A DNA stretch of 32,000 nucleotides from positions 1,411,223-1,443,222 of the forward strand of contig NZ_CP072453.1 of the NCBI RefSeq assembly GCF_019343475.1, written 5' to 3'. Of this stretch, positions 9,756 through 29,400 are shown in pieces. Under the pieces are notes generated by a model, which ran no database searches, was not told the DNA's origin, and saw only the letters and a program-made list of their open reading frames with translations. This stretch comes from Providencia sp. R33 (GTDB taxonomy: Bacteria; Pseudomonadota; Gammaproteobacteria; Enterobacterales; Enterobacteriaceae). Every line of letters begins with the position of its first letter. The first letter of the stretch is position 1. The position numbers and the translations under genes were made by a program.

Positions 9756-9825
9756 AAAAAGAACCAACACAATTAACCAGCCAGAACGCTGGATTTCTTC
9801 ATTTTATACCTAGGTTCGCATAATG
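9756..9825 (+). repeat. 70-bp direct repeat, copy 1 of 3 (phage right-end sequence plus XerC arm)
   Basis: The sequence aaaaagaaccaacacaattaaccagccagaacgctggatttcttcattttatacctaggttcgcataatg is identical at 9756-9825, 19816-19885 and 29876-29945. Confidence 0.9.
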
Positions 9826-9840
9826 TATAACGCTATGTTA
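9813..9840 (+). other. attL: hybrid dif/attP site (XerC arm GGTTCGCATAA, centre TGTATA, degenerate XerD-side ACGCTATGTTA)
   Basis: The XerC arm and the first 2 central nt are identical to the intact dif at 29933. The sequence diverges from the third central nucleotide onward. Confidence 0.8.
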
Positions 9841-9904
9841 CAAAAGGGTTCTGAGTGATTGCGGTAGAATGGTTTTGGGGTTTACCGCAATCGGGAAGGT
9901 TCGT

Positions 9905-9933
9905 CTTTACACATAGCGTGCATTGTGCGAATC
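9905..9933 (-). other. Inverted second dif-like site (attP2-like)
   Basis: The minus strand reads GATTCGCACAA TGCACG CTATGTGTAAAG, versus dif GGTTCGCATAA TGCATA TTATGTTAAAT. The XerC arm matches 9/11, the centre 4/6 and the XerD arm 7/11. It base-pairs with 9811-9838. Confidence 0.65.
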
Positions 9934-9976
9934 TACTAGGCTAAAATCTGAGAAATCATTAAAGGGTTTTATTAAT

Positions 9977-10243
9977 TCATCTTTTGCCATCATTTAACTC
10001 TTTTTTATTAGATAATTCTATTACTGTATTAAAAAGATAATCATCTGCTACATCTAAAATAATGCCGATACCTTGATACTCGTCTTCATCACTACCTTTT
10101 AAGATTTCTCCTTCAGCCCCCTCAGTTTTCACAAACTCATAAATATCTTCAATTAAAAATGTAATTAATTCTGCTCTTGATTTTCTATTATTGTTTTTAT
10201 CATTAATTAACCATTTATTAATTTCTAATTTAATTTTATTCAT
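9977..10243 (-). CDS. Hypothetical small acidic cytoplasmic protein (cargo module gene 4)
   Basis: 88 aa. An AAGAGG RBS lies 5 nt upstream of the ATG. It is rich in E/D (GAEGEILKGSDEDEYQG, LDVADDY) and has no hydrophobic segment. I recognise no family. Confidence 0.65.
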   Translation of the reverse strand: MNKIKLEINKWLINDKNNNRKSRAELITFLIEDIYEFVKTEGAEGEILKGSDEDEYQGIGIILDVADDYLFNTVIELSNKKELNDGKR

Positions 10244-10273
10244 GTGACCTCTTATCTTTTCATCTTGTGTTAA

Positions 10274-11026
10274 TCAATCGCCTGCTACTATTTTAATTTC
10301 CCGCATTGGAATATTATTTAACTCAGTAATGTTAAATATATACGTATCATCTTCAAGCTCTTTGTCTTTATTGATTTTTTTAGCAATAAAATAATCATTA
10401 TACTTATTGACTATTACATATGTCATATTATTCTTTTCAATTGAATAAAATACTGATTTAGTTCTTGCACCATATTTACCCAGTGAAGTAATTATTAATG
10501 AAAATATAATTAAAATAAAAAGAATTGCTAACATATCGGTTGACAACCTTGTTTCTCTAACGCTGGATTTTCTATCTACCAACTCTTTTTCAATATTATT
10601 ATTGATGCTCTCAAAAATATTTTTCGATTTCTCTTTGAATGGGAAAGATACAATAACAACTAGCAATGCAAATATCCCTATAGAAATAGCTAAGTATTTA
10701 AAATTCACATTACCATTCAAAAATAAAATCATTAACATGATGATAAATAGGAAAAAATAAGAGAATAGGTTTTTTGCTATTTTACCTATAATACCCAATG
10801 GGTTTATTAAGCTTACAAGCATATCCATTATCCCTGTGATTATGAATATAAACATAAACAACCCAAAGCCCATCTGTAATAAGTTCATTATACTTATGGA
10901 AATAAGGTCTTTTGAATAATTAAAATGGTTTGCATAACCTAATTCAAAAAAATAAGCAGAGCAATAAGAAGCACTTGTTATTATAGCAAGAAGTAGTGTT
11001 TCTTTTTTTAAAATACATTTAATCAT
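10274..11026 (-). CDS. Hypothetical polytopic membrane protein (cargo module gene 3)
   Basis: 250 aa with about 5 long hydrophobic helices (LLLAIITSASYCSAYFF, FGLFMFIFIITGIMDMLVSL, LFSYFFLFIIMLMILFL, LAISIGIFALLVVIVSF, LAILFILIIFSLIITSL). A soluble C-terminus of about 60 aa follows. It is tightly packed with its neighbours. Confidence 0.7.
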   Translation of the reverse strand: MIKCILKKETLLLAIITSASYCSAYFFELGYANHFNYSKDLISISIMNLLQMGFGLFMFIFIITGIMDMLVSLINPLGIIGKIAKNLFSYFFLFIIMLMILFLNGNVNFKYLAISIGIFALLVVIVSFPFKEKSKNIFESINNNIEKELVDRKSSVRETRLSTDMLAILFILIIFSLIITSLGKYGARTKSVFYSIEKNNMTYVIVNKYNDYFIAKKINKDKELEDDTYIFNITELNNIPMREIKIVAGD

Positions 11027-11042
11027 AACATACTCATTTAGC

Positions 11043-11231
11043 TTACAATTTCCATCTTACTAGCGCACAGAAAGCAGTTGCAGCTCCTAAATATAACGTA
11101 TATTTCCATTCAATGGCGTTAACTTTAGATGTGAGTAAAAACATGGCGAACGTTAATACTCCTAAAATTATGGCGGCTTTACCTGCATAATAAGAAATCA
11201 TTGCATTCATATCATCATTAAAATTTGACAT
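11043..11231 (-). CDS. Hypothetical 62-aa two-helix membrane peptide (cargo module gene 2)
   Basis: A GAGG RBS lies 5 nt upstream of the ATG. There are two hydrophobic segments (AAIILGVLTFAMFLL and LYLGAATAFCALV). The stop is 16 nt before the next gene. Confidence 0.6.
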   Translation of the reverse strand: MSNFNDDMNAMISYYAGKAAIILGVLTFAMFLLTSKVNAIEWKYTLYLGAATAFCALVRWKL

Positions 11232-11244
11232 TATAACCTCAAAT

Positions 11245-11278
11245 GTTCGTCTTTACACATAGAGTGAATTTTGTGAAT
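11245..11278 (+). repeat. Degenerate second copy of the attP2-like arm
   Basis: gttcgtctttacacatagagtgaattttgtgaat matches 9899-9932 (gttcgtctttacacatagcgtgcattgtgcgaat) at 30/34 positions, in direct orientation. The first 18 nt are perfect. Confidence 0.8.
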
Positions 11279-11964
11279 TAATTATCTTCATTTTTAAGTG
11301 TCTTAACTTTAAAAATTACAGAGTCACTAGATACGATGTCAGGACTGCCATCCCACGTAATAGAGCCTTTATTTCTATATGTAAATAAGAGTTCTGTTGG
11401 AAATTCATTATCTGATTTAGCAGCCCATAATTCACGAAGATATTTAAGTTTAATCGGTGCATTAGCACTTATTAACGCCATTAAAACCAGTCTATCTTTT
11501 AACGTTGGAAGATTGTTACTATTAATTTTCGAATCAATAACATTGTTAATCGACAGCTCTAATTCTTTGATTTTTTCTTCATTACCATCAATTGCTTTTA
11601 TTTTATTGTCAACCAGTGAAATTATTTCATTTTTCAATGTTTCTTTGACTTTTTCTAATGTATTTTCATCATCATTTTCGTTAATTTCATTAGGTTTTTT
11701 CCAAATATGCTCTCTCATATCTGTCACTGTATCTTTCATCATAGAGAATGTATCCGAATATAACTTATCAAATAGCTTTTCTAATCTTTCAACGTTTGAT
11801 TGAATTTCACTTGCTGCCTTTGTTGTTTCTTTAGCAGCCTCGTTAGACATTTTAAAAAATACGATTGATAGCCAAATCGCACCAACAGCAAGCAGTAAGG
11901 AGGCTATGGATGCAATAAAACTAATAATTTCAAATATACTTTGCATAGTGTTTGTGGTTTCCAT
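11278..11964 (-). CDS. Hypothetical membrane-anchored coiled-coil protein (cargo module gene 1)
   Basis: An N-terminal TM helix (IFEIISFIASIASLLLAVGAIWLSIVFF) is followed by a long charged helical region and a C-terminal globular domain of about 80 aa. I placed the start at the ATG at 11964, whereas the ORF-track start at 11970 is GTG. No convincing RBS is present, so the start is uncertain. Confidence 0.6.
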   Translation of the reverse strand: METTNTMQSIFEIISFIASIASLLLAVGAIWLSIVFFKMSNEAAKETTKAASEIQSNVERLEKLFDKLYSDTFSMMKDTVTDMREHIWKKPNEINENDDENTLEKVKETLKNEIISLVDNKIKAIDGNEEKIKELELSINNVIDSKINSNNLPTLKDRLVLMALISANAPIKLKYLRELWAAKSDNEFPTELLFTYRNKGSITWDGSPDIVSSDSVIFKVKTLKNEDN

Positions 11965-11993
11965 TTTCACAAATGTTACAAGGAATATGAAAA

Positions 11994-12015
11994 CCCCCGT
12001 GCTGTACTACGGGGG
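11994..12015 (-). terminator. Rho-independent terminator after the 77-aa gene
   Basis: The minus strand reads cccccgt-agtacagc-acggggg followed by ttttc. It is a 7-bp GC-rich stem. Confidence 0.55.
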
Positions 12016-12087
12016 TAGTCTCAGGATAACTACAATATTTCAGGCAACTATCTAAAAACAAAACATATTATCATTTCTGTAATTATT

Positions 12088-12433: not shown

Positions 12434-12633
12434 GGTATTTTATGAACATTGTCTATTTCGATTTTATAGAAGGGTATGGCATTAACGCTCAAGTCGGTAT
12501 TGAGTGGGATTTTTACCGTTCCTTTGAGGAATTGATTAAAGAGTGTTCAAACTGCTTTCACGATAATTTTATCTTAGCGCCAACCACGGCTATTTCAGGG
12601 AATTTCTTAGGTTACAGGGAGAGCTTGCTATGA
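12424..12633 (+). CDS. Hypothetical 69-aa ORF upstream of rep (coding status uncertain)
   Basis: Its stop overlaps the rep start (ATGA at 12630-12633), suggesting translational coupling. There is no clear RBS, and the start codon sits inside the operator-like palindrome. Confidence 0.3.
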   Translation: MYTWYFMNIVYFDFIEGYGINAQVGIEWDFYRSFEELIKECSNCFHDNFILAPTTAISGNFLGYRESLL

Positions 12634-13769
12634 GTAATCAATCAACTCGCTCTGTTTTTATTGACTATTTAGCTTTTTCCGCACCCATTTCAGTCATGAA
12701 AGATGTTCATACTTTTCAAGAAAAGGGTTTTGAATGGCGTAAATTTCAATATTTACCTTCTTATCGTCATTATCAAACTGAACCACGTTATGCATGTTTG
12801 CCTGAGTTTCAAGGGATCCCCGAGATCCCATCAAACACTATGACCGATGAGCAGTTAAATCAATATGATACTGACTTAATAGAATGCTATTTTTCTCGTT
12901 TAAAAACATGGATAGCTTCTGTTTTTGGCTTAGTTATGGGGCTGCCAAGGGGTAAGGGCGGTTTTGCATATAGTGATTCCGCACTGTTGTATAGTGACCA
13001 AGGTGGCTCAGATCATTGCGGTGTGATTTTTTGGGGAGGTAATAACGATACATTTTATGTTCAAATTTCAGGTTTAGGTTGTGCTCATGTATTTAGTGGA
13101 ACAACACCACAAAAAATTCATAAGTGGTTAAAACACCTTGATATTTTTACATTAAAACGTCTCGACTTAGCAACCGATGATTATGATGGGATTTTTACCT
13201 GTCAAGCGGCATTACGGGATTATCGTTTTGATGCGTTCTATGGTGGAGCAGGTCCCAAACCTAAACTCGATACATCAAATGGCATTGATGCCAATGGATG
13301 TGTGACAAAAGAAATCGTCAATATTGGTTCTCGTCAATCTCGTATTTACTGGCGTATTTACAATAAAGCATTGGAACAAAAGGTTTCGGGTATTTGGTAT
13401 CGTTCAGAGGTCGAGTTAAAAGGGCTTTCAATTGATACATTGCTAAATATCGCAGGAATTTATACTGGGCTATGTGATTATTCTGCTCAAATTAATCCGA
13501 CTGTACCAACTTCTATTCCACCGCTTTTTGTTCGTAAAGCCATTGATTCCATTGAAGCAAAAGTTCGATGGTTACGCAAACAGGCATCAGCAACGCTTGC
13601 TAAAGTTTTTCATTATCATGAAGGTGATATGTTAAAAGTTTTTTCTATGGTTCTTAGGGAAGAACACCTTGAAGATCTAAATGTACGTTTTGATATACCG
13701 CCTATATATCACACTTTATACCAAACTTTAATGAGCGAAAAATTAAAGCTTTCTCAAACACCTTTTTAA
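12630..13769 (+). CDS. Rolling-circle replication initiator, Rep_trans family (RstA-like; functional analogue of Ff gpII)
   Basis: 379 aa with a GGGAGAG RBS. It has Rep_trans-type motifs: FIDYLAFS, HCGVIFWGG..FYVQISGLGC, RLDLATDDYDG and RIYWRIYNK...YRSEVELKG. It is first in the plus-strand operon and shows no resemblance to M13 gpII. Confidence 0.8.
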   Translation: MSNQSTRSVFIDYLAFSAPISVMKDVHTFQEKGFEWRKFQYLPSYRHYQTEPRYACLPEFQGIPEIPSNTMTDEQLNQYDTDLIECYFSRLKTWIASVFGLVMGLPRGKGGFAYSDSALLYSDQGGSDHCGVIFWGGNNDTFYVQISGLGCAHVFSGTTPQKIHKWLKHLDIFTLKRLDLATDDYDGIFTCQAALRDYRFDAFYGGAGPKPKLDTSNGIDANGCVTKEIVNIGSRQSRIYWRIYNKALEQKVSGIWYRSEVELKGLSIDTLLNIAGIYTGLCDYSAQINPTVPTSIPPLFVRKAIDSIEAKVRWLRKQASATLAKVFHYHEGDMLKVFSMVLREEHLEDLNVRFDIPPIYHTLYQTLMSEKLKLSQTPF

Positions 13770-19617: not shown

Positions 19618-19836
19618 ATGAAGACTGTTTGGATTGATGAAGAATCTTTTTTGCAAATGGCTAAAATTGGCTGGATTGACTATAGCAATGCACGTTTAGA
19701 TAACAATAAGTTGCTTGGTATCGAATTACCGCCAAGACGCAAAAATGGCAATAATACGCATTTCAAAATGACGTTAACCGATGTAACAAGGTTCATTAAT
19801 GACTATAACGAAGCCAAAAAGAACCAACACAATTAA
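19618..19836 (+). CDS. Hypothetical 72-aa protein adjacent to attP
   Basis: ORF with an AGGGA RBS. Its last codons and stop lie inside the 70-bp repeat, 37 nt before the XerC arm. I recognise no family. Confidence 0.55.
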   Translation: MKTVWIDEESFLQMAKIGWIDYSNARLDNNKLLGIELPPRRKNGNNTHFKMTLTDVTRFINDYNEAKKNQHN

Positions 19837-19885
19837 CCAGCCAGAACGCTGGATTTCTTCATTTTATACCTAGGTTCGCATAATG
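19816..19885 (+). repeat. 70-bp direct repeat, copy 2 of 3
   Basis: Identical to 9756-9825 and 29876-29945. Confidence 0.9.
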
Positions 19886-19900
19886 TATAACGCTATGTTA
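19873..19900 (+). other. Phage-phage junction dif-like site (equals attP1 as in the circular phage genome)
   Basis: GGTTCGCATAATGTATAACGCTATGTTA, identical to attL. Phage sequence lies on both sides. Confidence 0.8.
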
Positions 19901-19964
19901 CAAAAGGGTTCTGAGTGATTGCGGTAGAATGGTTTTGGGGTTTACCGCAATCGGGAAGGTTCGT

Positions 19965-19993
19965 CTTTACACATAGCGTGCATTGTGCGAATC
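19965..19993 (-). other. Inverted dif-like site (attP2-like), copy 2
   Basis: Identical to 9905-9933 (+10,060). Confidence 0.65.
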
Positions 19994-20036
19994 TACTAGG
20001 CTAAAATCTGAGAAATCATTAAAGGGTTTTATTAAT

Positions 20037-20303
20037 TCATCTTTTGCCATCATTTAACTCTTTTTTATTAGATAATTCTATTACTGTATTAAAAAGATAA
20101 TCATCTGCTACATCTAAAATAATGCCGATACCTTGATACTCGTCTTCATCACTACCTTTTAAGATTTCTCCTTCAGCCCCCTCAGTTTTCACAAACTCAT
20201 AAATATCTTCAATTAAAAATGTAATTAATTCTGCTCTTGATTTTCTATTATTGTTTTTATCATTAATTAACCATTTATTAATTTCTAATTTAATTTTATT
20301 CAT
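20037..20303 (-). CDS. Hypothetical small acidic protein (cargo gene 4), copy 2
   Basis: Identical to 9977-10243. Confidence 0.65.
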   Translation of the reverse strand: MNKIKLEINKWLINDKNNNRKSRAELITFLIEDIYEFVKTEGAEGEILKGSDEDEYQGIGIILDVADDYLFNTVIELSNKKELNDGKR

Positions 20304-20333
20304 GTGACCTCTTATCTTTTCATCTTGTGTTAA

Positions 20334-21086
20334 TCAATCGCCTGCTACTATTTTAATTTCCCGCATTGGAATATTATTTAACTCAGTAATGTTAAATATA
20401 TACGTATCATCTTCAAGCTCTTTGTCTTTATTGATTTTTTTAGCAATAAAATAATCATTATACTTATTGACTATTACATATGTCATATTATTCTTTTCAA
20501 TTGAATAAAATACTGATTTAGTTCTTGCACCATATTTACCCAGTGAAGTAATTATTAATGAAAATATAATTAAAATAAAAAGAATTGCTAACATATCGGT
20601 TGACAACCTTGTTTCTCTAACGCTGGATTTTCTATCTACCAACTCTTTTTCAATATTATTATTGATGCTCTCAAAAATATTTTTCGATTTCTCTTTGAAT
20701 GGGAAAGATACAATAACAACTAGCAATGCAAATATCCCTATAGAAATAGCTAAGTATTTAAAATTCACATTACCATTCAAAAATAAAATCATTAACATGA
20801 TGATAAATAGGAAAAAATAAGAGAATAGGTTTTTTGCTATTTTACCTATAATACCCAATGGGTTTATTAAGCTTACAAGCATATCCATTATCCCTGTGAT
20901 TATGAATATAAACATAAACAACCCAAAGCCCATCTGTAATAAGTTCATTATACTTATGGAAATAAGGTCTTTTGAATAATTAAAATGGTTTGCATAACCT
21001 AATTCAAAAAAATAAGCAGAGCAATAAGAAGCACTTGTTATTATAGCAAGAAGTAGTGTTTCTTTTTTTAAAATACATTTAATCAT
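20334..21086 (-). CDS. Hypothetical polytopic membrane protein (cargo gene 3), copy 2
   Basis: Identical to 10274-11026. Confidence 0.7.
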   Translation of the reverse strand: MIKCILKKETLLLAIITSASYCSAYFFELGYANHFNYSKDLISISIMNLLQMGFGLFMFIFIITGIMDMLVSLINPLGIIGKIAKNLFSYFFLFIIMLMILFLNGNVNFKYLAISIGIFALLVVIVSFPFKEKSKNIFESINNNIEKELVDRKSSVRETRLSTDMLAILFILIIFSLIITSLGKYGARTKSVFYSIEKNNMTYVIVNKYNDYFIAKKINKDKELEDDTYIFNITELNNIPMREIKIVAGD

Positions 21087-21102
21087 AACATACTCATTTA
21101 GC

Positions 21103-21291
21103 TTACAATTTCCATCTTACTAGCGCACAGAAAGCAGTTGCAGCTCCTAAATATAACGTATATTTCCATTCAATGGCGTTAACTTTAGATGTGAGTAAAA
21201 ACATGGCGAACGTTAATACTCCTAAAATTATGGCGGCTTTACCTGCATAATAAGAAATCATTGCATTCATATCATCATTAAAATTTGACAT
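21103..21291 (-). CDS. Hypothetical 62-aa two-helix membrane peptide (cargo gene 2), copy 2
   Basis: Identical to 11043-11231. Confidence 0.6.
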   Translation of the reverse strand: MSNFNDDMNAMISYYAGKAAIILGVLTFAMFLLTSKVNAIEWKYTLYLGAATAFCALVRWKL

Positions 21292-21304
21292 TATAACCTC
21301 AAAT

Positions 21305-21338
21305 GTTCGTCTTTACACATAGAGTGAATTTTGTGAAT
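21305..21338 (+). repeat. Degenerate attP2-like arm, copy 2
   Basis: Identical to 11245-11278, and 30/34 identical to 19959-19992. Confidence 0.8.
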
Positions 21339-22024
21339 TAATTATCTTCATTTTTAAGTGTCTTAACTTTAAAAATTACAGAGTCACTAGATACGATGTC
21401 AGGACTGCCATCCCACGTAATAGAGCCTTTATTTCTATATGTAAATAAGAGTTCTGTTGGAAATTCATTATCTGATTTAGCAGCCCATAATTCACGAAGA
21501 TATTTAAGTTTAATCGGTGCATTAGCACTTATTAACGCCATTAAAACCAGTCTATCTTTTAACGTTGGAAGATTGTTACTATTAATTTTCGAATCAATAA
21601 CATTGTTAATCGACAGCTCTAATTCTTTGATTTTTTCTTCATTACCATCAATTGCTTTTATTTTATTGTCAACCAGTGAAATTATTTCATTTTTCAATGT
21701 TTCTTTGACTTTTTCTAATGTATTTTCATCATCATTTTCGTTAATTTCATTAGGTTTTTTCCAAATATGCTCTCTCATATCTGTCACTGTATCTTTCATC
21801 ATAGAGAATGTATCCGAATATAACTTATCAAATAGCTTTTCTAATCTTTCAACGTTTGATTGAATTTCACTTGCTGCCTTTGTTGTTTCTTTAGCAGCCT
21901 CGTTAGACATTTTAAAAAATACGATTGATAGCCAAATCGCACCAACAGCAAGCAGTAAGGAGGCTATGGATGCAATAAAACTAATAATTTCAAATATACT
22001 TTGCATAGTGTTTGTGGTTTCCAT
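21338..22024 (-). CDS. Hypothetical membrane-anchored coiled-coil protein (cargo gene 1), copy 2
   Basis: Identical to 11278-11964. Confidence 0.6.
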   Translation of the reverse strand: METTNTMQSIFEIISFIASIASLLLAVGAIWLSIVFFKMSNEAAKETTKAASEIQSNVERLEKLFDKLYSDTFSMMKDTVTDMREHIWKKPNEINENDDENTLEKVKETLKNEIISLVDNKIKAIDGNEEKIKELELSINNVIDSKINSNNLPTLKDRLVLMALISANAPIKLKYLRELWAAKSDNEFPTELLFTYRNKGSITWDGSPDIVSSDSVIFKVKTLKNEDN

Positions 22025-22053
22025 TTTCACAAATGTTACAAGGAATATGAAAA

Positions 22054-22075
22054 CCCCCGTGCTGTACTACGGGGG
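22054..22075 (-). terminator. Terminator after the 77-aa gene, copy 2
   Basis: Identical to 11994-12015. Confidence 0.55.
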
Positions 22076-22147
22076 TAGTCTCAGGATAACTACAATATTT
22101 CAGGCAACTATCTAAAAACAAAACATATTATCATTTCTGTAATTATT

Positions 22148-22381
22148 TTATTTTTTTATGTCACTTTTGAAAAATAGCTCTCCATTTTCATTTACATCTA
22201 CATCATGAATTTTGTTCTCTAAGACAAAGTGAACAATATCAGATTCTCTATACACCGCTTTAAGCCCATTCATAATATTTTTTCTTGTTAAATTATAAGA
22301 AATTTCTTTTAAATCAGCGGATTCTGTGTCTTTTAGCCTAACTGTTTTAATCAGTGGTTCTGTCATATTTTTTTCTCTCAT
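22148..22381 (-). CDS. Candidate phage repressor (77 aa), copy 2
   Basis: Identical to 12088-12321. Confidence 0.5.
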   Translation of the reverse strand: MREKNMTEPLIKTVRLKDTESADLKEISYNLTRKNIMNGLKAVYRESDIVHFVLENKIHDVDVNENGELFFKSDIKK

Positions 22382-22403
22382 TAGTTGCCTACTCAGATCC
22401 TAT

Positions 22404-22493
22404 AACATGTATACATATTTTCAATTACTAGTTGACATGTAATATGTAACAGGTATATCTTCAAATGAAATATAATTTGTAATATGTATACAT
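22404..22493. promoter_or_regulatory. Divergent control region with operator-like repeats, copy 2
   Basis: Identical to 12344-12433. Confidence 0.5.
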
Positions 22494-22693
22494 GGTATTT
22501 TATGAACATTGTCTATTTCGATTTTATAGAAGGGTATGGCATTAACGCTCAAGTCGGTATTGAGTGGGATTTTTACCGTTCCTTTGAGGAATTGATTAAA
22601 GAGTGTTCAAACTGCTTTCACGATAATTTTATCTTAGCGCCAACCACGGCTATTTCAGGGAATTTCTTAGGTTACAGGGAGAGCTTGCTATGA
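22484..22693 (+). CDS. Hypothetical 69-aa ORF upstream of rep, copy 2 (uncertain)
   Basis: Identical to 12424-12633. Confidence 0.3.
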   Translation: MYTWYFMNIVYFDFIEGYGINAQVGIEWDFYRSFEELIKECSNCFHDNFILAPTTAISGNFLGYRESLL

Positions 22694-23829
22694 GTAATCA
22701 ATCAACTCGCTCTGTTTTTATTGACTATTTAGCTTTTTCCGCACCCATTTCAGTCATGAAAGATGTTCATACTTTTCAAGAAAAGGGTTTTGAATGGCGT
22801 AAATTTCAATATTTACCTTCTTATCGTCATTATCAAACTGAACCACGTTATGCATGTTTGCCTGAGTTTCAAGGGATCCCCGAGATCCCATCAAACACTA
22901 TGACCGATGAGCAGTTAAATCAATATGATACTGACTTAATAGAATGCTATTTTTCTCGTTTAAAAACATGGATAGCTTCTGTTTTTGGCTTAGTTATGGG
23001 GCTGCCAAGGGGTAAGGGCGGTTTTGCATATAGTGATTCCGCACTGTTGTATAGTGACCAAGGTGGCTCAGATCATTGCGGTGTGATTTTTTGGGGAGGT
23101 AATAACGATACATTTTATGTTCAAATTTCAGGTTTAGGTTGTGCTCATGTATTTAGTGGAACAACACCACAAAAAATTCATAAGTGGTTAAAACACCTTG
23201 ATATTTTTACATTAAAACGTCTCGACTTAGCAACCGATGATTATGATGGGATTTTTACCTGTCAAGCGGCATTACGGGATTATCGTTTTGATGCGTTCTA
23301 TGGTGGAGCAGGTCCCAAACCTAAACTCGATACATCAAATGGCATTGATGCCAATGGATGTGTGACAAAAGAAATCGTCAATATTGGTTCTCGTCAATCT
23401 CGTATTTACTGGCGTATTTACAATAAAGCATTGGAACAAAAGGTTTCGGGTATTTGGTATCGTTCAGAGGTCGAGTTAAAAGGGCTTTCAATTGATACAT
23501 TGCTAAATATCGCAGGAATTTATACTGGGCTATGTGATTATTCTGCTCAAATTAATCCGACTGTACCAACTTCTATTCCACCGCTTTTTGTTCGTAAAGC
23601 CATTGATTCCATTGAAGCAAAAGTTCGATGGTTACGCAAACAGGCATCAGCAACGCTTGCTAAAGTTTTTCATTATCATGAAGGTGATATGTTAAAAGTT
23701 TTTTCTATGGTTCTTAGGGAAGAACACCTTGAAGATCTAAATGTACGTTTTGATATACCGCCTATATATCACACTTTATACCAAACTTTAATGAGCGAAA
23801 AATTAAAGCTTTCTCAAACACCTTTTTAA
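22690..23829 (+). CDS. Rep_trans-family replication initiator, copy 2
   Basis: Identical to 12630-13769. Confidence 0.8.
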   Translation: MSNQSTRSVFIDYLAFSAPISVMKDVHTFQEKGFEWRKFQYLPSYRHYQTEPRYACLPEFQGIPEIPSNTMTDEQLNQYDTDLIECYFSRLKTWIASVFGLVMGLPRGKGGFAYSDSALLYSDQGGSDHCGVIFWGGNNDTFYVQISGLGCAHVFSGTTPQKIHKWLKHLDIFTLKRLDLATDDYDGIFTCQAALRDYRFDAFYGGAGPKPKLDTSNGIDANGCVTKEIVNIGSRQSRIYWRIYNKALEQKVSGIWYRSEVELKGLSIDTLLNIAGIYTGLCDYSAQINPTVPTSIPPLFVRKAIDSIEAKVRWLRKQASATLAKVFHYHEGDMLKVFSMVLREEHLEDLNVRFDIPPIYHTLYQTLMSEKLKLSQTPF

Positions 23830-23851
23830 AAATAATTAGGATGAATTTATT

Positions 23852-24127
23852 ATGATTAAAATTGAATTAAACGCTGAAGATTGTGCAGTTAAAACAAAAG
23901 AAGTCACTTCAACTCGTACAGGTGAAATTTTACATTTCCGTGAGCAAAAAGCCTATATTTATAATGGCGGTATTTATCCCAAGCAATTCATGATTGGTCT
24001 GGAAAAAGATCAGGCTGCATATCCTGCGGGCTTTTATACATTATCTATAGATTCATATGATGTGGGGGATTTTGGTGCATTAAAATTCTCTCGAAATATT
24101 AAATTAATCCCCATTGATAAAAAATAA
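23852..24127 (+). CDS. ssDNA-binding protein (gV homologue), copy 2
   Basis: Identical to 13792-14067. Confidence 0.9.
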   Translation: MIKIELNAEDCAVKTKEVTSTRTGEILHFREQKAYIYNGGIYPKQFMIGLEKDQAAYPAGFYTLSIDSYDVGDFGALKFSRNIKLIPIDKK

Positions 24128-24154
24128 ATTTAATTAATTTTAATAGGAAAGGGC

Positions 24155-24271
24155 ATGTTTAATTTCGAACCGTCATTACTTTTTGAGTTAAGAGATTTTA
24201 TTTATGTCGTTTCTGGTTTCATTGTTTTTTTATTGTCATTTATTGCTGGTCGCTTAACCGCTCCGAGGTAA
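24155..24271 (+). CDS. gVII-like minor coat protein, copy 2
   Basis: Identical to 14095-14211. I checked the ATG at 24155 and the TAA at 24269-24271 in the sequence. Confidence 0.6.
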   Translation: MFNFEPSLLFELRDFIYVVSGFIVFLLSFIAGRLTAPR

Positions 24272-24273
24272 TT

Positions 24274-24375
24274 ATGCTTGGATTAATTGCGTTATTTTCA
24301 TCAATTGTTGCTTCAGGTTTTGCGGCTGGTTATCTCGTCGGTTTTTTTGACCGATTAACTCGTGAACTATCCTAG
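24274..24375 (+). CDS. gIX-like minor coat protein, copy 2
   Basis: Identical to 14214-14315. Confidence 0.6.
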   Translation: MLGLIALFSSIVASGFAAGYLVGFFDRLTRELS

Positions 24376-24386
24376 AAAGGTGATTT

Positions 24387-24620
24387 ATGTTTAAAAAAAC
24401 ATTAGCAACAATCATTGTTGCTACCGCGTCCATCGCTTCTCCTGCTGTTTTTGCAGCTGAAACACCAACGTCAACAGTTCCGCAAGCTGCGCAAGATGCA
24501 ATTACAGGAGTTGGCAGTACCGCAACGGGCATGATTGATTTGGCGTGGCCTGTTATCGCGCTTGTTGTCGGTGGTTTCTTAGCCATTAAGATGTTTAAAA
24601 AAGTGGCATCAAAAGTCTAA
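24387..24620 (+). CDS. Major coat protein (gVIII homologue), copy 2
   Basis: Identical to 14327-14560. Confidence 0.9.
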   Translation: MFKKTLATIIVATASIASPAVFAAETPTSTVPQAAQDAITGVGSTATGMIDLAWPVIALVVGGFLAIKMFKKVASKV

Positions 24621-24649
24621 CGCTATTGACTCAGCGTTATATCCTCTTT

Positions 24650-24672
24650 GGGGCTTCGTGCCCCATTTTTTT
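24650..24672 (+). terminator. Terminator after gVIII, copy 2
   Basis: Identical to 14590-14612. Confidence 0.7.
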
Positions 24673-24692
24673 AAATAACAAGGTTTTCAATT

Positions 24693-26429
24693 ATGCGTTT
24701 TATTTTCTTTTTATTACTCGGTTTTAGTTTCTATTCTAATGCGGTAATTAAAACGTATAATGTGACATTATCTGATACCAATTATAAAGTCTCTCAATAT
24801 GACCCTAATACGGGTTTTTGGTCTTCATCATTTACTCTTGAATATCCGCTTCAAACTTATCAAGCGAGTGATTGTTTTCTTGAACGTAGTTTTTCTATTG
24901 CTCCGAGAACGATTGCCGAAAAATATATTAAACTACCGAATAGAAACCCAAATGCATCTCCGCCATCATTATCGGTTAAATTTAATCCAAAGGTAAAATG
25001 TACAGTTGATTGGGTTGAGGATAAACCAAAATATTCATTAACCGATAAAGCCAATTCAGCGATATTAACGATAACTTATCGCGCTTTTTATTGCCCTAAT
25101 GAATCTGCTTATTCTTACAATAATTTAGATAAAAAAGAAGGATGTCCCTCTATTGAGCATGGTAGCTTGGAAGAATATTGTTTAAAACAACCCACGTTAT
25201 ATAACACTACAGTTAAAAACCCAACGCATGATGGTAAAGATTATATATTTAATAATGCAGAAAATGGCTGTAAATACTTTTCAGTTGGTTCCGTTATATT
25301 AAAACAAGAAAATCCACTTCGTATTACAAGTGATTGGGCAACAATTGGAGTCGCTGATTTAGATACTGGTGATAGCGAAATTATCGAAAATGATAATGGT
25401 AATGATGGTGGTAACGGCAGTGAAGGTGGTAACGGCAGTGAAGGTGGTAACGGCAGCGAAGGTGGTAACGGCAGCGAAGGTGGTAACGGCAGTGAAGGTG
25501 GTAACGGCAGTGAAGGTGGTAACGGCAGCGAAGGTGGTAACGGCAGCGAAGGTGGTAACGGCAGCGAAGGTGGTAACGGCAGCGAAGGTGGTAACGGCAG
25601 CGAAGGTGGTAACGGCAGCGAAGGTGGTAACGGCAGCGAAGGTGGTAACGGCAACGAAGGCGGTAATGGAGGCGGGAGTGCGTCAGGTGAATATGCCGGT
25701 ATTTTAAACTCAATTCGTACAGATACACAAAGTATCAGTAAAACCACATCATCCATGGATAAAAACCTGAATTCCATCAAAGATAAAGCATCATCGATAG
25801 ACGATAGGCTCGCTAATATTGATGGAAACGTTGCAAAGATTGAGCGTTATTTACGCCCAGAAGAACACTCTTTTTCCGAATGGCTGAATTCTTTTGATAC
25901 CACTTACAGCACCTATTTTAGCCCCTCGATTAAAGAGCCTAATTCAATATTTAATGCCGAATTTGGGTATCGCAATGACAATGAGTTTTCACTGTATGGG
26001 GATATCGCCTCCAATATGCAAGGAGATGCGTTTGTCAGGTCATTTTCAAATATCTATCGAGAACAATTGTCAGGTTTAACTTCCCACTTACCAAGCAATT
26101 TACAACTGTCTTCGATTGCCAATCAATTAGACGGTTCGATTCGTTCTGATACGATTGATTTTAGAGACGATTTTAAAGCTTATGGGACATTTACCTCAAT
26201 TTTTGGAGTGGGTGATTTAGTCAAATCCATTTATCAAGTTTTGCCCAAGTATAAAGAATGCACTCCGATTATCTTATTTGGTGGGTATCCTTATGAGTTT
26301 TCTATTTCTTGCGAATACATAAATAAAATCAAAGACTTTCTTTATTACGTCTTTTTCTTTTTTACATTGTGGTTCACGTTCACGAAATTAATGCATTCAA
26401 TTTCAGCAACGCCCGCAAAAGAAAGTTAA
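24693..26429 (+). CDS. Adsorption protein (gIII homologue), copy 2
   Basis: Identical to 14633-16369, including the repeat number. Confidence 0.9.
   Translation: MRFIFFLLLGFSFYSNAVIKTYNVTLSDTNYKVSQYDPNTGFWSSSFTLEYPLQTYQASDCFLERSFSIAPRTIAEKYIKLPNRNPNASPPSLSVKFNPKVKCTVDWVEDKPKYSLTDKANSAILTITYRAFYCPNESAYSYNNLDKKEGCPSIEHGSLEEYCLKQPTLYNTTVKNPTHDGKDYIFNNAENGCKYFSVGSVILKQENPLRITSDWATIGVADLDTGDSEIIENDNGNDGGNGSEGGNGSEGGNGSEGGNGSEGGNGSEGGNGSEGGNGSEGGNGSEGGNGSEGGNGSEGGNGSEGGNGSEGGNGSEGGNGNEGGNGGGSASGEYAGILNSIRTDTQSISKTTSSMDKNLNSIKDKASSIDDRLANIDGNVAKIERYLRPEEHSFSEWLNSFDTTYSTYFSPSIKEPNSIFNAEFGYRNDNEFSLYGDIASNMQGDAFVRSFSNIYREQLSGLTSHLPSNLQLSSIANQLDGSIRSDTIDFRDDFKAYGTFTSIFGVGDLVKSIYQVLPKYKECTPIILFGGYPYEFSISCEYINKIKDFLYYVFFFFTLWFTFTKLMHSISATPAKES
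25407..25658 (+). repeat. 14 x 18-bp in-frame tandem repeat in gIII, copy 2
   Basis: Identical to 15347-15598. Confidence 0.9.
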
Positions 26430-26447
26430 TACCAAAAGGAGCGCATT

Positions 26448-26786
26448 ATGCCGTTATTACTGGCTTGGTTACCTGCACTGATTACATGGTTGTTTAATGC
26501 ATGGCGTATTTACGTTGCAGCTTCTTTTTTATGGAAAATCATTAAATATATTGCAGGTGTCATTATTACCTATGCTGTAGTGAACTATGTTTTTGGTGGA
26601 TTTATCTCGGCACTCATTAATTGGGTCTCAACTTCATTAACGTATATTTCCCCGTTTATTGATGCCTTTTCGTTATTTTTACCCTCAAATTTTGAAACCT
26701 GCGTTTATATCATCATTTCAGATTACGTTCTTGCCATGGTTTTGTCATGGAAACATCGTATTGCAACGGCATTAGGAGCGATTTAA
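26448..26786 (+). CDS. gVI homologue, copy 2
   Basis: Identical to 16388-16726. Confidence 0.85.
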   Translation: MPLLLAWLPALITWLFNAWRIYVAASFLWKIIKYIAGVIITYAVVNYVFGGFISALINWVSTSLTYISPFIDAFSLFLPSNFETCVYIIISDYVLAMVLSWKHRIATALGAI

Positions 26787-26948
26787 GTGGATTTTACTGT
26801 GTGGGACGTTATGGCATTTGCGTTCTCAATGTTTCTTTTATCTTATATAAGGTGATGTTATGTCTATCATCCCGTTTATACCGACACGCCTTGAATATTA
26901 CTATGGTCATTTAACGCATTCATATGCTTATTCACTTTAGGAGGGGAA

Positions 26949-27980
26949 ATGGCGGTCTATTTTGTCACGGGTAAACTCGGTTCAGGAAAAACACTCTCAG
27001 CCGTGTATAAAATCCGCGATTACTTAATGAATGGGCGTAAGGTGGCGACAAACTTAAATATCTCGTTAACAGGGATGTTTGGTTATCACGCCAAAAATAT
27101 TAATCTGGTACGTATTCCTGATAAACCCAATATCATTGATTTAGAGTCAATTGGGCGCGGTAATTCTACTTACGATGAGTCACTCAATGGCTTACTGGTC
27201 TTGGACGAATGCGGAACATGGTTTAACTCGCGTTCTTGGGCAGATAAGAGCCGACAGGAGTTAATCAATTGGTTTGCACATGCGCGAAAGCTCGGCTGGG
27301 ATATTCTTTTCCTTGTGCAAAGTCTTCATGTTGTCGATAAACAGAGTCGATTGATGTTTGCGGAACACGTGGTGTATTGCCGTCGTGCTGACCGTTTAAA
27401 AATCCCCTATATTCATTGGTTATTGCAATTAGTGACATTAGGGCATTTTCAACTCCCGAAAATCCACATGGCTATCGTGAAATACGGGGATTCACCGACT
27501 GCATTAGTCACTGACCGTTGGTTTTACCAAGGTGGGCCTTTGTATTCCGCTTATGACACCAAACAGCAATTTTCTGATTTCTATGCGCATGGGGCATTTT
27601 GTGTTTTGCCTCCGCATTACTACGTCTTAAAACGCACAAAAATTAATGTGAGCTTTTTTATGCGCTTAACAAAAATCTATTTCAAACGCTCTAAACGACT
27701 CAGCTTAATTCTTTTGGGAATATTCCTGTGCCTTTCAGGGCAATTTTTTTATCACAAGTATTGGCCATCAACGTCAGAAACACCCATCTTGCCACTTTCT
27801 GACGTTTTTATTGATTCTTACGTGAAGCACGGTAATCAGACTCAATACCGATTTTCAACACCAAATGGCATTTTATCTGAAGACGATTTAACAAATGCAG
27901 GCATAAAAATTTCGCAGGTATCGCCCTGTAAAGTGTCATTAAATTTAAATGGGGTTTCACATGAAGTCACATGTAAATAG
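26949..27980 (+). CDS. Assembly ATPase (gI/Zot homologue), copy 2
   Basis: Identical to 16889-17920. Confidence 0.92.
   Translation: MAVYFVTGKLGSGKTLSAVYKIRDYLMNGRKVATNLNISLTGMFGYHAKNINLVRIPDKPNIIDLESIGRGNSTYDESLNGLLVLDECGTWFNSRSWADKSRQELINWFAHARKLGWDILFLVQSLHVVDKQSRLMFAEHVVYCRRADRLKIPYIHWLLQLVTLGHFQLPKIHMAIVKYGDSPTALVTDRWFYQGGPLYSAYDTKQQFSDFYAHGAFCVLPPHYYVLKRTKINVSFFMRLTKIYFKRSKRLSLILLGIFLCLSGQFFYHKYWPSTSETPILPLSDVFIDSYVKHGNQTQYRFSTPNGILSEDDLTNAGIKISQVSPCKVSLNLNGVSHEVTCK
27660..27980 (+). CDS. pXI-like internal product of gI, copy 2
   Basis: Identical to 17600-17920. Confidence 0.45.
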   Translation: MRLTKIYFKRSKRLSLILLGIFLCLSGQFFYHKYWPSTSETPILPLSDVFIDSYVKHGNQTQYRFSTPNGILSEDDLTNAGIKISQVSPCKVSLNLNGVSHEVTCK

Positions 27981-29289: not shown

Positions 29290-29338
29290 TTTTTTATTAC
29301 GTTACATTCTAATTATTTATCAATCTCTCTTTTAATCA

Positions 29339-29400
29339 GAACCCTGTTAGCGATGTTCGCTCACTGCGAGAGCGGGGGGCGGATATCGCTAATGGGGTTT
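29339..29400 (+). other. Intergenic GC-rich hairpin (candidate packaging signal or origin), copy 2
   Basis: Identical to 19279-19340. Confidence 0.4.

What the first reader, a model, noticed from the sequence alone, without database searches (positions are those of the whole stretch)
9899..11278. Three-gene cargo block bracketed by direct repeats of the dif-like attP2 arm (dif-module-like architecture inside a phage)
The 34-nt attP2 arm at 9899-9932 recurs at 11245-11278 in the same orientation, with 30/34 identity and the first 18 nt perfect. The 1.3 kb between the two copies holds exactly three genes (88 aa, 250 aa, 62 aa). Relative to attP1 (9813-9840), the distal copy is inverted. The block therefore lies between oppositely oriented Xer-type sites, as in the pdif modules that shuffle cargo genes on Acinetobacter plasmids. 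This looks like the scar of a site-specific (Xer-mediated) or att-duplicating insertion of a cassette into the phage attachment region. If so, it would be a cargo-acquisition route for a filamentous phage.
Basis: partly seen in the sequence, partly recalled or inferred. Interest (0 to 1): 0.8.

Follow-up and report, generated by a model that had tools for sequence, protein, structure and literature searches.

The report
Stacked phage cargo with att scars
A filamentous prophage integrated at the chromosome's dif site in Providencia built its accessory-gene region by stacking small gene modules that each arrived with their own attachment site; the repeated 34-mer is the decayed leftover of one such site, not the border of a Xer-mobilised three-gene cassette.

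Summary
The repeat is real. 9899-9932 and 11245-11278 share 30/34 nt, with 18 perfect (0.03 expected by chance).

The window holds two exact tandem copies (10,060 bp) of a CTXphi-like inovirus at dif of Providencia sp. R33. attP1, spacer and arm 1 fold into a forked hairpin supported by covariation.

The cassette is not the three genes:
- Relatives L008 and L010 have attP-arm-(p88)-p250-p62 and then run straight into a conserved ori-like hairpin. They lack arm 2 and the 230-aa gene.
- Relatives L012, L013-17 and L018-20 carry the 230-aa gene alone, with its stop codon abutting a complete attP.

So arm 2 belongs to the 230-aa gene and is the orphan attP2 of a second module. A third, truncated arm relic lies between p88 and p250. 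A sister phage with identical Rep (L120) has an independent stack that keeps a nearly whole, decayed attP. Arm 2 can no longer pair with attP1 (-13 vs -28 kcal/mol). Phages with identical Rep carry six different cargos here.

Best reading (inferred): mixed element arrays at dif are turned into one genome by rolling-circle read-through or deletion, which stacks cargo, and the surplus attPs decay. This is not a dif module. It is a new variant of known CTXphi-type hybrid formation. Interest is moderate.

The parts
9756..9812 (+). 57-bp conserved terminal sequence. It includes the small hairpin CCAGC..GCTGG. It is present on the host side of the left junction and at the right end of each prophage copy (19816-19872, 29876-29932).
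   Evidence: Three-way junction alignment. Also present in L001, L006 and L011.
9813..9840 (+). attL / attP1-derived site GGTTCGCATAA-TGTATA-ACGCTATGTTA: XerC arm, then phage central region and degenerate XerD arm. Repeated at 19873-19900.
   Evidence: Pairs with arm 1 in the + strand fold.
9841..9898 (+). attP spacer with distal stem-loop (TGATTGCGGTA ... TACCGCAATC).
   Evidence: Fold. Compensatory changes GC<->CG at two stem pairs across 12 relatives.
9899..9932 (+). Arm 1, the functional attP2 arm (bottom strand of the folded attP). Repeated at 19959-19992.
9977..10243 (-). p88, an 88-aa acidic protein and the cargo of module 1. 94% identical to the 85-aa gene of L120 and 72% to that of L008.
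   Evidence: (phrog_37184).
10264..10276 (+). Truncated relic of an older attP2 arm (CTTGTGTTAATCA). It overlaps the p250 stop codon.
   Evidence: The orthologous L008 sequence, CTTGTGCGAATCAAT, matches the arm end TTGTGCGAATCAAT at 14/14. In L009, L010, L011 and L119 the p250-family stop codon lies at or within a few nt of the end of a complete arm.
10274..11026 (-). p250, a multi-pass membrane protein and cargo of module 2. Homologues hit Pfam PF27470 (TfpB) weakly.
11043..11231 (-). p62, a small membrane protein and cargo of module 2.
   Evidence: 79% identical in L008; also present in L010 and L021.
11245..11278 (+). Arm 2, an orphan decayed attP2 arm with no attP1 or spacer. It belongs to module 3. 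Repeated at 21305-21338.
   Evidence: Absent in L008 and L010. Placed in the attP hairpin it gives dG -13.2 kcal/mol, z -1.7.
11278..11970 (-). p230, the cargo of module 3. The start is probably the ATG at 11964 (228 aa). Predicted N-terminal TM helix, long coiled coil and a small C-terminal winged-helix-like domain. The stop codon abuts arm 2.
   Evidence: (phrog_36054).
11990..12032 (+). Conserved hairpin AAAACCCCCGTGCTGTACTACGGGGGTAGTCTCAGGATAACTA. It is the sharp right boundary of cargo variation. Candidate RstA ori(+) nick hairpin; it also scores as a terminator of p77 on the minus strand. Repeated at 22050-22092.
   Evidence: The CTXphi nick lies in the apical loop of an ori(+) hairpin near rstR (PMC4439123).
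12088..12321 (-). p77, a divergently transcribed small protein at the RstR position (putative repressor).
   Evidence: (phrog_5642).
12630..13769 (+). RstA-type rolling-circle replication initiator.
   Evidence: PF02486 at 1.8e-19 and phrog_453 at 1.7e-92. 36% identical to Vibrio inovirus Rep proteins.
19816..29945 (+). Second, 100% identical tandem copy of the 10,060-bp prophage unit. Every feature above recurs at +10,060.
   Evidence: There are two protein accessions per gene in Providencia sp. R33.
29933..29960 (+). Intact chromosomal dif GGTTCGCATAA-TGCATA-TTATGTTAAAT, regenerated at the right end of the array.

Best explanation
**What is shown**

The region between the phage attachment site and the replication-origin-like hairpin (9899-11990) is a hypervariable cargo region of a CTXphi-type, dif-integrating inovirus. 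It is built from three stacked modules:
- M1: arm 1 + p88.
- M2: a truncated arm relic + p250 + p62.
- M3: arm 2 + p230.

Each module is found in relatives on its own, directly against a complete attP (attP1-spacer-arm). The second 34-mer is therefore the orphan attP2 arm that came in with p230. It is not the far border of a three-gene cassette. Arm 2 is decayed and can no longer form the Xer substrate with attP1.

**What is inferred: how the stack formed**
1. Different elements of this family, both full phages and mini-elements of 1.6-2.3 kb, integrate one after another at dif by XerCD. Every element in such an array starts with its own attP1'-spacer-arm-cargo.
2. New phage genomes are made by RstA rolling-circle synthesis running from the origin hairpin of one element to that of the next.
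3. If the intervening element lacks or loses its origin hairpin, or a deletion removes the stretch from hairpin through backbone to attP1 and spacer, two cargo regions end up in one genome.
4. The surplus attP then decays or is trimmed down to the arm. The arm survives because it abuts the stop codon of the adjacent gene.

The cargo genes themselves are morons of unknown function. p230 and p250 are predicted membrane proteins; neighbouring variants encode TIR or P63C proteins.
For: **The element is a CTX-type dif-integrating phage**
- Exact tandem prophage with an intact dif at the right end and attP1'-spacer-arm at each left junction.
- Forked hairpin in the + strand, dG -27.9 kcal/mol, z -6.
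- Three compensatory pairs across 12 relatives.
- RstA-type Rep.

**Modules M1 and M2 occur alone**
- L008 is colinear with 9814-11242 (85% identity) and then jumps to 11989-12032 (100% identity).
- L010 does the same but lacks p88.
- L009, L010, L011 and L119 have the p250-family stop at or within a few nt of the end of a complete arm.

**Module M3 occurs alone**
- In L012, L013-17 and L018-20 the p230 homologue (54-57% aa identity) has its stop abutting a complete attP and runs colinearly to the hairpin.

**Other relics and independent stacks**
- Third relic between p88 and p250: L008 matches the arm end at 14/14.
- Independent second stack in L120/L121 and L127-L131. The backbone is 98% identical and Rep is identical. 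The order is attP-arm-p85-90 nt-[decayed attP keeping the XerD-arm half of attP1, a spacer with its own compensated stem, and the arm]-p270-p114-hairpin.
- Another orphan arm lies next to dif in Pragia.

**Arm 2 is inactive**
- Placed in the attP hairpin it gives dG -13.2 vs -27.9 kcal/mol, z -1.7. In a 1.5-kb fold attP1 pairs with arm 1.

**The site is hypervariable**
- Phages with 100% identical Rep carry six different cargos between arm and hairpin: 0.85-1.04 kb when single, 1.67 and 2.06 kb when stacked. Their attP spacer variants differ too, so attP travels with cargo rather than with the backbone.

**Mechanistic precedent**
- Tandem insertion, a regenerated dif and RCR between adjacent prophages: PMC4439123.
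- Hybridisation between co-integrated inoviruses: PMC7307601.
Against: - No direct precursor array was found, for example ...p62-hairpin-tail-attP1-spacer-arm-p230....
- The step from array to stacked genome is therefore inferred, and read-through cannot be told apart from deletion.
- An 8-nt direct repeat CAAATGTT flanks [arm 2 + p230] at 11240-11247 and 11970-11977. A comparable shared 8-mer occurs at about 1% of random junction pairs. This fits a microhomology or template-switch insertion better than a simple deletion.
- The 18 nt on the XerD side of arm 2 are still perfect. This could hint at a retained function, although with only 3-4 substitutions the asymmetry is not significant.
- The origin function of the hairpin is inferred from position, conservation and analogy. 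It also scores as an intrinsic terminator.
- Many relatives come from short metagenomic contigs.
Confidence: 0.7

Rival explanations
1. First reader's model. The three genes (9933-11244) are a dif-module-like cassette that XerCD inserted into the attachment region, duplicating the attP2 arm so that the cassette lies between Xer sites.
For: - The direct repeat is real and att-derived.
- As double-stranded DNA, arm 1 read on the minus strand resembles a 28-bp dif-like site: GATTCGCACAA-TGCACG-CTATGTGTAAA, with 9/11 matches in the XerC arm and 7/11 in the XerD arm.
- attP1 and arm 2 are inverted relative to each other.
Against: - L008 and L010 have the block in place without the second arm.
- Arm 2 co-occurs with p230 in other relatives.
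- The two arms flanking the block are direct, not inverted, whereas single dif modules are bounded by inversely oriented complete pdif sites (PMC13141974).
- Integration of a + strand hairpin into the double-stranded arm would place the incoming element in the opposite orientation (inference from site polarity).
- The left edge of arm 2 lies 7 nt outside the XerD arm, not at a cleavage position.
- The three relic junctions end at different points: whole attP in L120, arm only in arm 2, and a truncated arm at p250.
Confidence: 0.06
2. The module picture is the same but the mechanism differs. A discrete [arm 2 + p230 + 5'UTR] segment (11245-11976) was copied into an L008-like phage between p62 and the hairpin. 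The route was microhomology-mediated template switching during single-strand replication, stalling at the two strong hairpins (the attP distal stem and the ori hairpin), with no array intermediate.
For: - An 8-nt repeat CAAATGTT lies exactly at both ends of the segment.
- The 16-19 nt between the right repeat and the hairpin (GTTAC..AGGAAT) resemble the L008/L010 intergenic sequence more than the L012/L013/L018 one.
- In donor-type phages the segment is bounded by two hairpins.
Against: - The repeat has roughly a 1% chance expectation, which is not negligible.
- The similarity of the 16-19 nt is weak.
- L120 keeps most of a second attP (the XerD-arm half of attP1, spacer and arm). Array-derived stacking predicts this; a hairpin-bounded template switch does not.
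Confidence: 0.15
3. Arm 2 is kept because it still works. It could be an alternative attP2 partner, a XerD-binding site, or a transcription signal (operator or terminator) for the cargo genes.
For: - The 18 nt on the XerD side are perfectly conserved in arm 2, while all changes fall in the XerC side.
- The arm sits between two co-oriented genes (p230 stop, p62 RBS).
Against: - The hairpin with attP1 is lost.
- No promoter- or terminator-like site was predicted at either arm.
- The other relics are truncated or carry 6/34 changes, as expected for neutral decay.
- The full arm is not found at unrelated loci.
- There is no Rfam match.
Confidence: 0.07

Closest known systems
CTXphi-type IMEX (Vibrio cholerae CTXphi: attP1/attP2 forked-hairpin attP in + ssDNA, XerC-catalysed integration at dif)
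   Same: - Two inverted dif-like sites fold in the + strand.
- Integration is at dif, with a functional dif regenerated on the right and attP1/attP2 left masked on the left.
- The prophage copies are in tandem.
- The Rep is RstA-type, with a divergent small regulator next to an ori hairpin.
- No recombinase gene is present.

Sources: PMC3089051, PMC4439123.
   Different: - The host is Providencia (Enterobacterales).
- The spacer is 58 nt rather than about 90.
- Rep is only 36% identical.
- About 2 kb of cargo lies between attP2 and the ori hairpin, whereas CTXphi carries ctxAB at the other end.
- Extra orphan attP2 arms lie inside the genome.
Hybrid CTXphi/RS1-type genomes made by rolling-circle synthesis across adjacent prophages (Davis & Waldor 2000, as cited in PMC7307601 and PMC4439123)
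   Same: - Arrays of different dif-integrated elements exist.
- A new genome runs from one origin to the next, so attP plus neighbouring DNA is inherited from the downstream element.
- This explains why attP variants travel with cargo on an identical backbone.
   Different: The known process swaps modules. Here modules accumulate in one genome and leave orphan or decayed attPs as scars. The read-through or deletion step is inferred, not shown.
dif (pdif) modules of Acinetobacter plasmids
   Same: Small gene modules are associated with XerC/XerD-type sites, and the modules are shuffled between replicons.
   Different: - dif modules are bounded by complete 28-bp sites in inverse orientation and alternate C and D configurations (PMC13141974).
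- Here the flanking arms are direct.
- The orphan arm is half of a folded single-strand site, and it is decayed.
- The unit is arm plus downstream gene.
Phage-encoded hypervariable regions (pHVRs) of dif-type Vibrio inoviruses (PMC12715192)
   Same: A hot spot of roughly 1-2 kb sits at a fixed position on a conserved inovirus backbone. It holds exchangeable accessory genes, often defence-like; for example a TIR_2 protein in L123.
   Different: - Position: here the region lies between attP2 and the ori hairpin / rstR-like gene, not between zot and xafT.
- That description does not report internal att relics as module borders.
Integron gene cassettes (attC folded single-strand sites)
   Same: This is an analogy only. 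One gene plus one folded single-strand recombination site forms a unit, and units stack next to the attachment site. PMC3089051 notes that integrons also use single-stranded substrates.
   Different: - There is no integron integrase.
- The orphan arms are not active sites.
- No evidence shows excision or insertion of single units.

Membership tests
CTXphi-type IMEX | Integrated at chromosomal dif, with a functional dif regenerated at one end | tested here: met
   An intact 28-bp dif lies at 29933-29960. The left junctions carry the XerC arm plus the phage central region and a degenerate XerD arm.
CTXphi-type IMEX | Two inverted dif-like sites that fold in the + strand into a forked hairpin attP | tested here: met
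   dG -27.9 kcal/mol, z -6.0. 43 consensus pairs, 3 of them with compensatory changes, in 12 relatives.
CTXphi-type IMEX | No phage-encoded recombinase; RstA-type HUH initiator; tandem prophages | tested here: met
   - ORFs of the unit: Rep_trans, ssDNA-binding protein, coat, Zot and secretin, plus small proteins. None hits a recombinase family.
- Exact tandem copies.
CTXphi-type IMEX | Integration by XerC-catalysed exchange of one strand pair with + ssDNA | not testable with these tools
   Needs in vivo or in vitro recombination assays.
dif (pdif) module | Module bounded by two complete XerC-spacer-XerD sites in inverse orientation | tested here: not met
   Arm 1 and arm 2 are direct repeats. 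Read as a double-stranded site, arm 2 matches the local dif at only 7/11 in the XerC arm and 7/11 in the XerD arm.
dif (pdif) module | The same module recurs in other contexts flanked by the same pair of sites | tested here: not met
   L008 and L010 have the block with one arm only. Only L021 repeats the window's own junction.
dif (pdif) module | Crossovers lie within the 6-bp spacer of the sites | tested here: not met
   Homology breakpoints lie outside the arm (5' of GTTCGTC and after GAAT), and they differ among the three relics.
Inovirus hypervariable cargo region (pHVR) | Different gene content at a fixed position on an otherwise conserved backbone | tested here: met
   Six different cargos lie between arm and hairpin in phages with 100% identical Rep.
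Inovirus hypervariable cargo region (pHVR) | Located between zot and xafT, co-occurring with xafT (as defined for Vibrio CTX-I) | tested here: not met
   Here the region lies between attP2 and the ori-like hairpin / rstR-like gene. xafT itself was not searched for.
Inovirus hypervariable cargo region (pHVR) | Cargo with anti-phage or virulence function | tested here: inconclusive
   - The window's four cargo proteins give no significant PADLOC, Pfam or NCBIfam hit.
- A TIR_2 protein occupies the site in L123.
- A p230 homologue sits between the tail-fibre and tail-sheath genes of a P2-like phage. This is the position of the P2 Z/fun moron (own knowledge).

The most novel reading that the evidence does not exclude
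The 'attP + one or two genes (+ ori hairpin)' units may be autonomous, Xer-dependent single-strand gene cassettes or satellites.

Candidate units:
- L013-17: a 1.6-kb element at dif, consisting of attP-p230-hairpin-tail, seen in five samples.
- L010: attP-p250-p62-hairpin-tail.
- L006: a 2.3-kb element.
- The roughly 0.5-kb attP-p88 unit.

A helper inovirus would replicate and package them through the shared, 100% conserved RstA hairpin. They would integrate at dif and become stacked next to the phage attP. This would amount to an integron-like cassette system for filamentous phages, in which orphan arms mark the cassette borders.
Probability: 0.2. Interest if true: 0.75.

Novelty: new variant of a known kind. 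Interest (0 to 1): 0.45.

Why it matters
Filamentous phages that hijack XerCD carry toxins and other host-changing genes, but how they pick up cargo is poorly documented outside Vibrio cholerae. Three points follow from this case.

- **A physical record of acquisition.** Each cargo module still carries the remains of the attachment site it arrived with. Accretion can therefore be read directly from sequence in Providencia, an opportunistic pathogen.
- **Arrays at dif as the assembly site.** The evidence points to dif arrays and rolling-circle hybrid formation, rather than Xer-mediated cassette insertion, as the place where new phage genomes are assembled.
- **A simple search key.** An attP2 arm on the left and a conserved hairpin on the right delimit a hot spot. 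On one and the same backbone that hot spot holds TIR, P63C, TfpB-like and other genes.

Tried and rejected
**Searches that found nothing useful**
- Megablast of the whole unit against GenBank phages gave no match.
- Exact-sequence look-ups of p250 and p230 as translated from the window were not on record, probably because of start-codon choice.
- tblastn of p250 against phages gave no match.
- A degenerate arm pattern in IMG/VR and the exact 18-mer in JGI metagenomes gave, with one exception (L027), only chance 18-mer hits without the rest of the arm. They added no multi-arm loci.
- The genome-contig scan gave only four loci. One is labelled Actinomadura, but its recovered arm and flanks (about 200 nt) and its BLAST profile are the same as the IMG/VR phage L002, so it is probably a contaminant.
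- Pfam, PHROGs, PADLOC and NCBIfam gave no informative function for p88, p250, p62 or p230.
- The AlphaFold model of p230 (pLDDT 73) gave only weak winged-helix matches, with no hit at E <= 0.001.
- Rfam gave no match in the window.
- The promoter/terminator scan found nothing at the arms.
- One script timed out while looking for DNA energy parameter files; the strand folding was used instead.

**Ideas considered and rejected**
- Arm 2 as a local duplication of arm 1. Its context instead matches the attP-p230 junction of other phages: the p230 stop codon directly abuts the arm, as in L012, L013 and L018, where p230 sits against a complete attP.
- Integration of a second phage into the double-stranded arm or into attP1. 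Either would give the wrong orientation or order.
Full report
**1. The observation**

9899-9932 and 11245-11278 are in the same orientation and share 30/34 nt, with the first 18 nt identical. The repeat finder extends the match to 37 nt at 86%. The 18-mer with up to 3 mismatches occurs four times in the window against 0.03 expected. Three minus-strand ORFs of 88, 250 and 62 aa lie between the copies.

**2.

The window contains two exact tandem copies of a 10,060-bp element: 9756-19885 is 100% identical to 19816-29945.

The three junctions align as follows:
- Both left junctions read GGTTCGCATAATG|TATAACGCTATGTTA, followed by spacer and arm.
- The right end reads GGTTCGCATAATG|CATATTATGTTAAAT, an intact 28-bp dif.

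The unit encodes:
- an RstA-type initiator (PF02486, phrog_453; 36% identical to Vibrio inovirus Rep proteins);
- an ssDNA-binding protein, major coat, pIII-like, pVI-like, Zot and secretin proteins on the + strand;
- a few small genes on the minus strand.

The flanks are chromosomal genes (LysR, ROK, DUF1283, SDR, RoxA), syntenic with Providencia. The p250 protein is 100% identical to two loci of Providencia sp. R33 (J6836_06615 and J6836_06685), so the tandem is present in the deposited genome.

The + strand of 9800-9945 folds into a forked hairpin (dG -27.9 kcal/mol, z -6.0):
- the XerC-arm stem is attP1 paired with the 3' half of arm 1;
- a central bulge follows;
- the XerD-arm stem is ACGCTATGT paired with ACATAGCGT;
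- an internal loop and a distal stem-loop complete it.

Across 12 distinct relatives the structure is kept, with compensatory changes at three pairs. This is the architecture described for CTXphi: two inverted dif-like sites, a forked hairpin in + ssDNA, a functional dif regenerated on one side, and tandem copies needed for phage production (PMC3089051; PMC4439123). So "the attP2 arm" is a correct label for 9899-9932.

**3. What the second copy belongs to**

*Relatives with the three-gene block but no arm 2.* Homologues of p250 led to short contigs from other samples.
- L008 is colinear with window 9814-11242 at 85% identity (attP1, spacer, arm, p88, p250, p62). After 16 nt of unaligned intergenic sequence it continues with window 11989-12032 at 100% identity.
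- L010 does the same but also lacks p88.
- Both therefore lack 11243-11988, which is arm 2 plus the 230-aa gene.

*Relatives with p230 alone against a complete attP.* Homologues of p230 (464 hits) led to three kinds of locus:
- L012, a complete 9-kb phage;
- L013-17, a 1.6-kb element integrated at dif, seen in five samples;
- L018-20, relic arrays in Providencia genomes.

In all of these the p230 homologue (54-57% aa identity) is the gene directly against a complete attP1-spacer-arm. Its stop codon abuts the arm exactly as in the window (TAA|TTCACAAAAT here, TGA|TTCGCACAAT in L013). The locus then runs colinearly to the same conserved hairpin.

Arm 2 is thus the attP2 arm of a p230 module that has lost its attP1 and spacer. 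L021, from a further sample, repeats the window's p230-arm 2-p62 junction at 99.5% identity.

**4. More relics, and an independent case**

*A third relic in the window.* In L009, L010, L011 and L119 the p250-family gene's stop lies at or within a few nt of the end of a complete arm. In the window and L008, p88 lies between the functional arm and p250. The 30 nt between the p88 start and the p250 stop still end with an arm fragment: CTTGTGCGAATCAAT in L008 (14/14 with the arm end) and CTTGTGTTAATCAAT in the window, at 10264-10278. The window's cargo region therefore holds three modules, each beginning with an arm or its remnant.

*A separate event.* Looking up the window's exact Rep protein gave phages with identical Rep. 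One of them, L120 (also L121 and L127-131, from several genomes and samples), has this structure:
- It is 92% identical to the window over attP-arm-p88, and 98% identical from the hairpin onward.
- Between them it carries a different inner module.
- After p85 and 90 nt comes a decayed but nearly complete attP: the XerD-arm half of attP1, a spacer whose distal stem has its own compensated sequence (GACTCCGG/CCGGAGCC), and an arm with 6/34 changes.
- That arm abuts the stop of a 270-aa TfpB-like gene (32% identical to p250).

This is a separate event that left more of the second attP behind. Pragia fontium also has an orphan arm with half a spacer and an abutting gene, 1 kb from its dif.

**5. 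The hot spot and its borders**

Phages with 100% identical Rep carry six different cargos between the arm and the hairpin:
- a 328-aa protein;
- a TfpB-like 245-aa protein;
- p85 + p270 + p114;
- a P63C protein;
- a TIR_2 protein;
- the window's four genes.

Single-module regions are 0.85-1.04 kb. The two stacked ones are 1.67 and 2.06 kb. The attP spacer variant (CGCAATCG-type or CCGGAATGG-type) differs among these identical backbones, so attP is inherited with the cargo and not with the backbone.

The right border is the hairpin AAAACCCCCGTGCTGTACTACGGGGGTAGTCTCAGGATAACTA (11990-12032).
- It is 100% conserved where flanking DNA is about 70% identical.
- It is recognisable even in Vibrio RstA phages.
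- It is sometimes followed by one or two extra TACTACGGGGG repeats.

In CTXphi, RstA nicks in the apical loop of an ori(+) hairpin next to rstR (PMC4439123). By position and conservation this hairpin is a candidate origin. That is an inference, and the hairpin also scores as a terminator for p77.

**6. State of arm 2**

- Replacing arm 1 with arm 2 in the attP sequence drops the fold from -27.9 to -13.2 kcal/mol (z -1.7), and the centroid keeps only the distal stem.
- In a 1.5-kb fold that includes both arms, attP1 pairs with arm 1.
- All four differences lie in the central and XerC-complement part.
- No promoter- or terminator-like site is predicted at either arm, and there is no Rfam match.

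I conclude that arm 2 is a non-functional scar. A residual XerD-side function is not excluded.

**7. Mechanism**

*Shown:* the modules exist separately next to complete attPs, they are stacked here, and the surplus attPs are decayed to different extents.

*Inferred:* elements of this family integrate successively at dif, so each element in an array begins with attP1'-spacer-arm-cargo. Phage genomes are produced by rolling-circle synthesis from one origin to the next, which is known to give hybrid genomes (PMC4439123; PMC7307601). If the intervening origin is missing or is deleted together with backbone, attP1 and spacer, two cargo regions end up in one genome. The arm tends to survive because it touches the stop codon of the next gene.

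*Why Xer recombination alone cannot give the observed structure:*
- Integration into the double-stranded arm would invert the incoming element.
- Integration at attP1 would give the wrong order.
- The relic boundaries are not at cleavage positions, and they differ between events.

*An alternative for the arm 2-p230 segment:* a microhomology-guided template switch. An 8-nt repeat CAAATGTT sits at both ends of the segment, with a chance expectation of about 1%. I cannot decide between these routes.

**8. Comparison with known systems**

- The element passes the testable criteria for a CTXphi-type IMEX.
- It fails those for a dif module: direct rather than inverse sites, one site incomplete and decayed, and the block found with a single site (PMC13141974).
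- The hot spot is of the kind recently described as pHVRs in Vibrio dif-type inoviruses (PMC12715192), but at a different position. Internal att relics marking the modules are not reported in the section of that paper that was read.

I rate it a new variant of a known kind.

**9. Cargo function**

Cargo function remains unknown.
- p230 is predicted as a TM helix, a long coiled coil and a small winged-helix-like domain (pLDDT 73; only weak PDB matches).
- A homologue occupies the slot between the tail-fibre and sheath genes of a P2-like phage.
- p250 and p62 are membrane proteins.

**10. Verdict**

- It is wrong about the unit and the mechanism: the three genes are not a cassette between Xer sites, and the region is not dif-module-like.
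- Interest is moderate.

Noticed in passing
window 9756-19885 and 19816-29945: Two 100% identical tandem copies of the 10,060-bp prophage, with a third copy of the 70-bp junction. The deposited Providencia sp. R33 genome lists two accessions for each phage protein.
   Followed up: yes
window 9701-9812 (host side of the left junction): The 57 bp left of the XerC arm are identical to the phage's own right end. In addition, 9718-9780 is 97% identical to the tail of the mini-element contig L010. Either the host's dif-left flank is the remnant of an older element, or these elements carry a copy of the host flank. L013, from another host, has the same roxA-flank-attL arrangement.
   Followed up: partly
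window 11990-12032; L010, L018, L019, L020, L035: The conserved ori-like hairpin is followed in some relatives by one or two extra copies of TACTACGGGGG, giving 2-3 copies in all. A related hairpin (AACCCCCGTATCTGTATTACGGGGGTAAATTCC) is present in Vibrio inoviruses whose Rep is only 36% identical.
   Followed up: partly
L013-L017 (about 1.6 kb), L006 2203-4540 (2.3 kb), L010: Mini-elements integrated at dif that consist only of attP, one or two cargo genes, the conserved hairpin and a short tail. They have no Rep or structural genes. L013 was seen in five samples. They could be satellites or prophage relics.
   Followed up: partly
L004 5468-5519 (Pragia fontium): An orphan attP2 arm with the 3' half of the spacer stem. 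A 189-aa gene abuts it, and it lies 1 kb from an intact dif.
   Followed up: partly
L118 11864-14047, L119 8511-10645, L120 9497-11684, L128 6459-8321: Relatives with identical Rep have a second accessory region between the secretin gene and the att end. It encodes T6SS Hcp and, in one case, a PAAR protein. The window has only two small ORFs there (19386-19836).
   Followed up: no
window 15309-15647 (inside the pIII-like gene 14633-16369): A long run of GNGSEG repeats in the glycine-rich linker. Homologues with the same backbone are 524-554 aa rather than 578, so the tract length varies.
   Followed up: no
L007 (NZ_JAXCEI010000036.1, labelled Actinomadura monticuli, 8.4-kb contig): The contig's arm and about 200 nt of flank, and its BLAST profile against the window, are the same as those of the IMG/VR inovirus L002, which has a Providencia-type attP. 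It is probably a contaminant contig in an actinomycete assembly.
   Followed up: no
window 11278-11970; L022 3902-4657 (Peduovirus P22H4): The p230 family is widespread in Enterobacterales (464 hits). In a P2-like phage it sits between the tail-fibre and tail-sheath genes, a known moron slot. This suggests a host-benefit or exclusion function.
   Followed up: partly
window 11274 and L120 607: Both orphan arms carry the same TGCG to TGTG change in the XerC-complement part. That position is invariant in all 12 complete arms.
   Followed up: no
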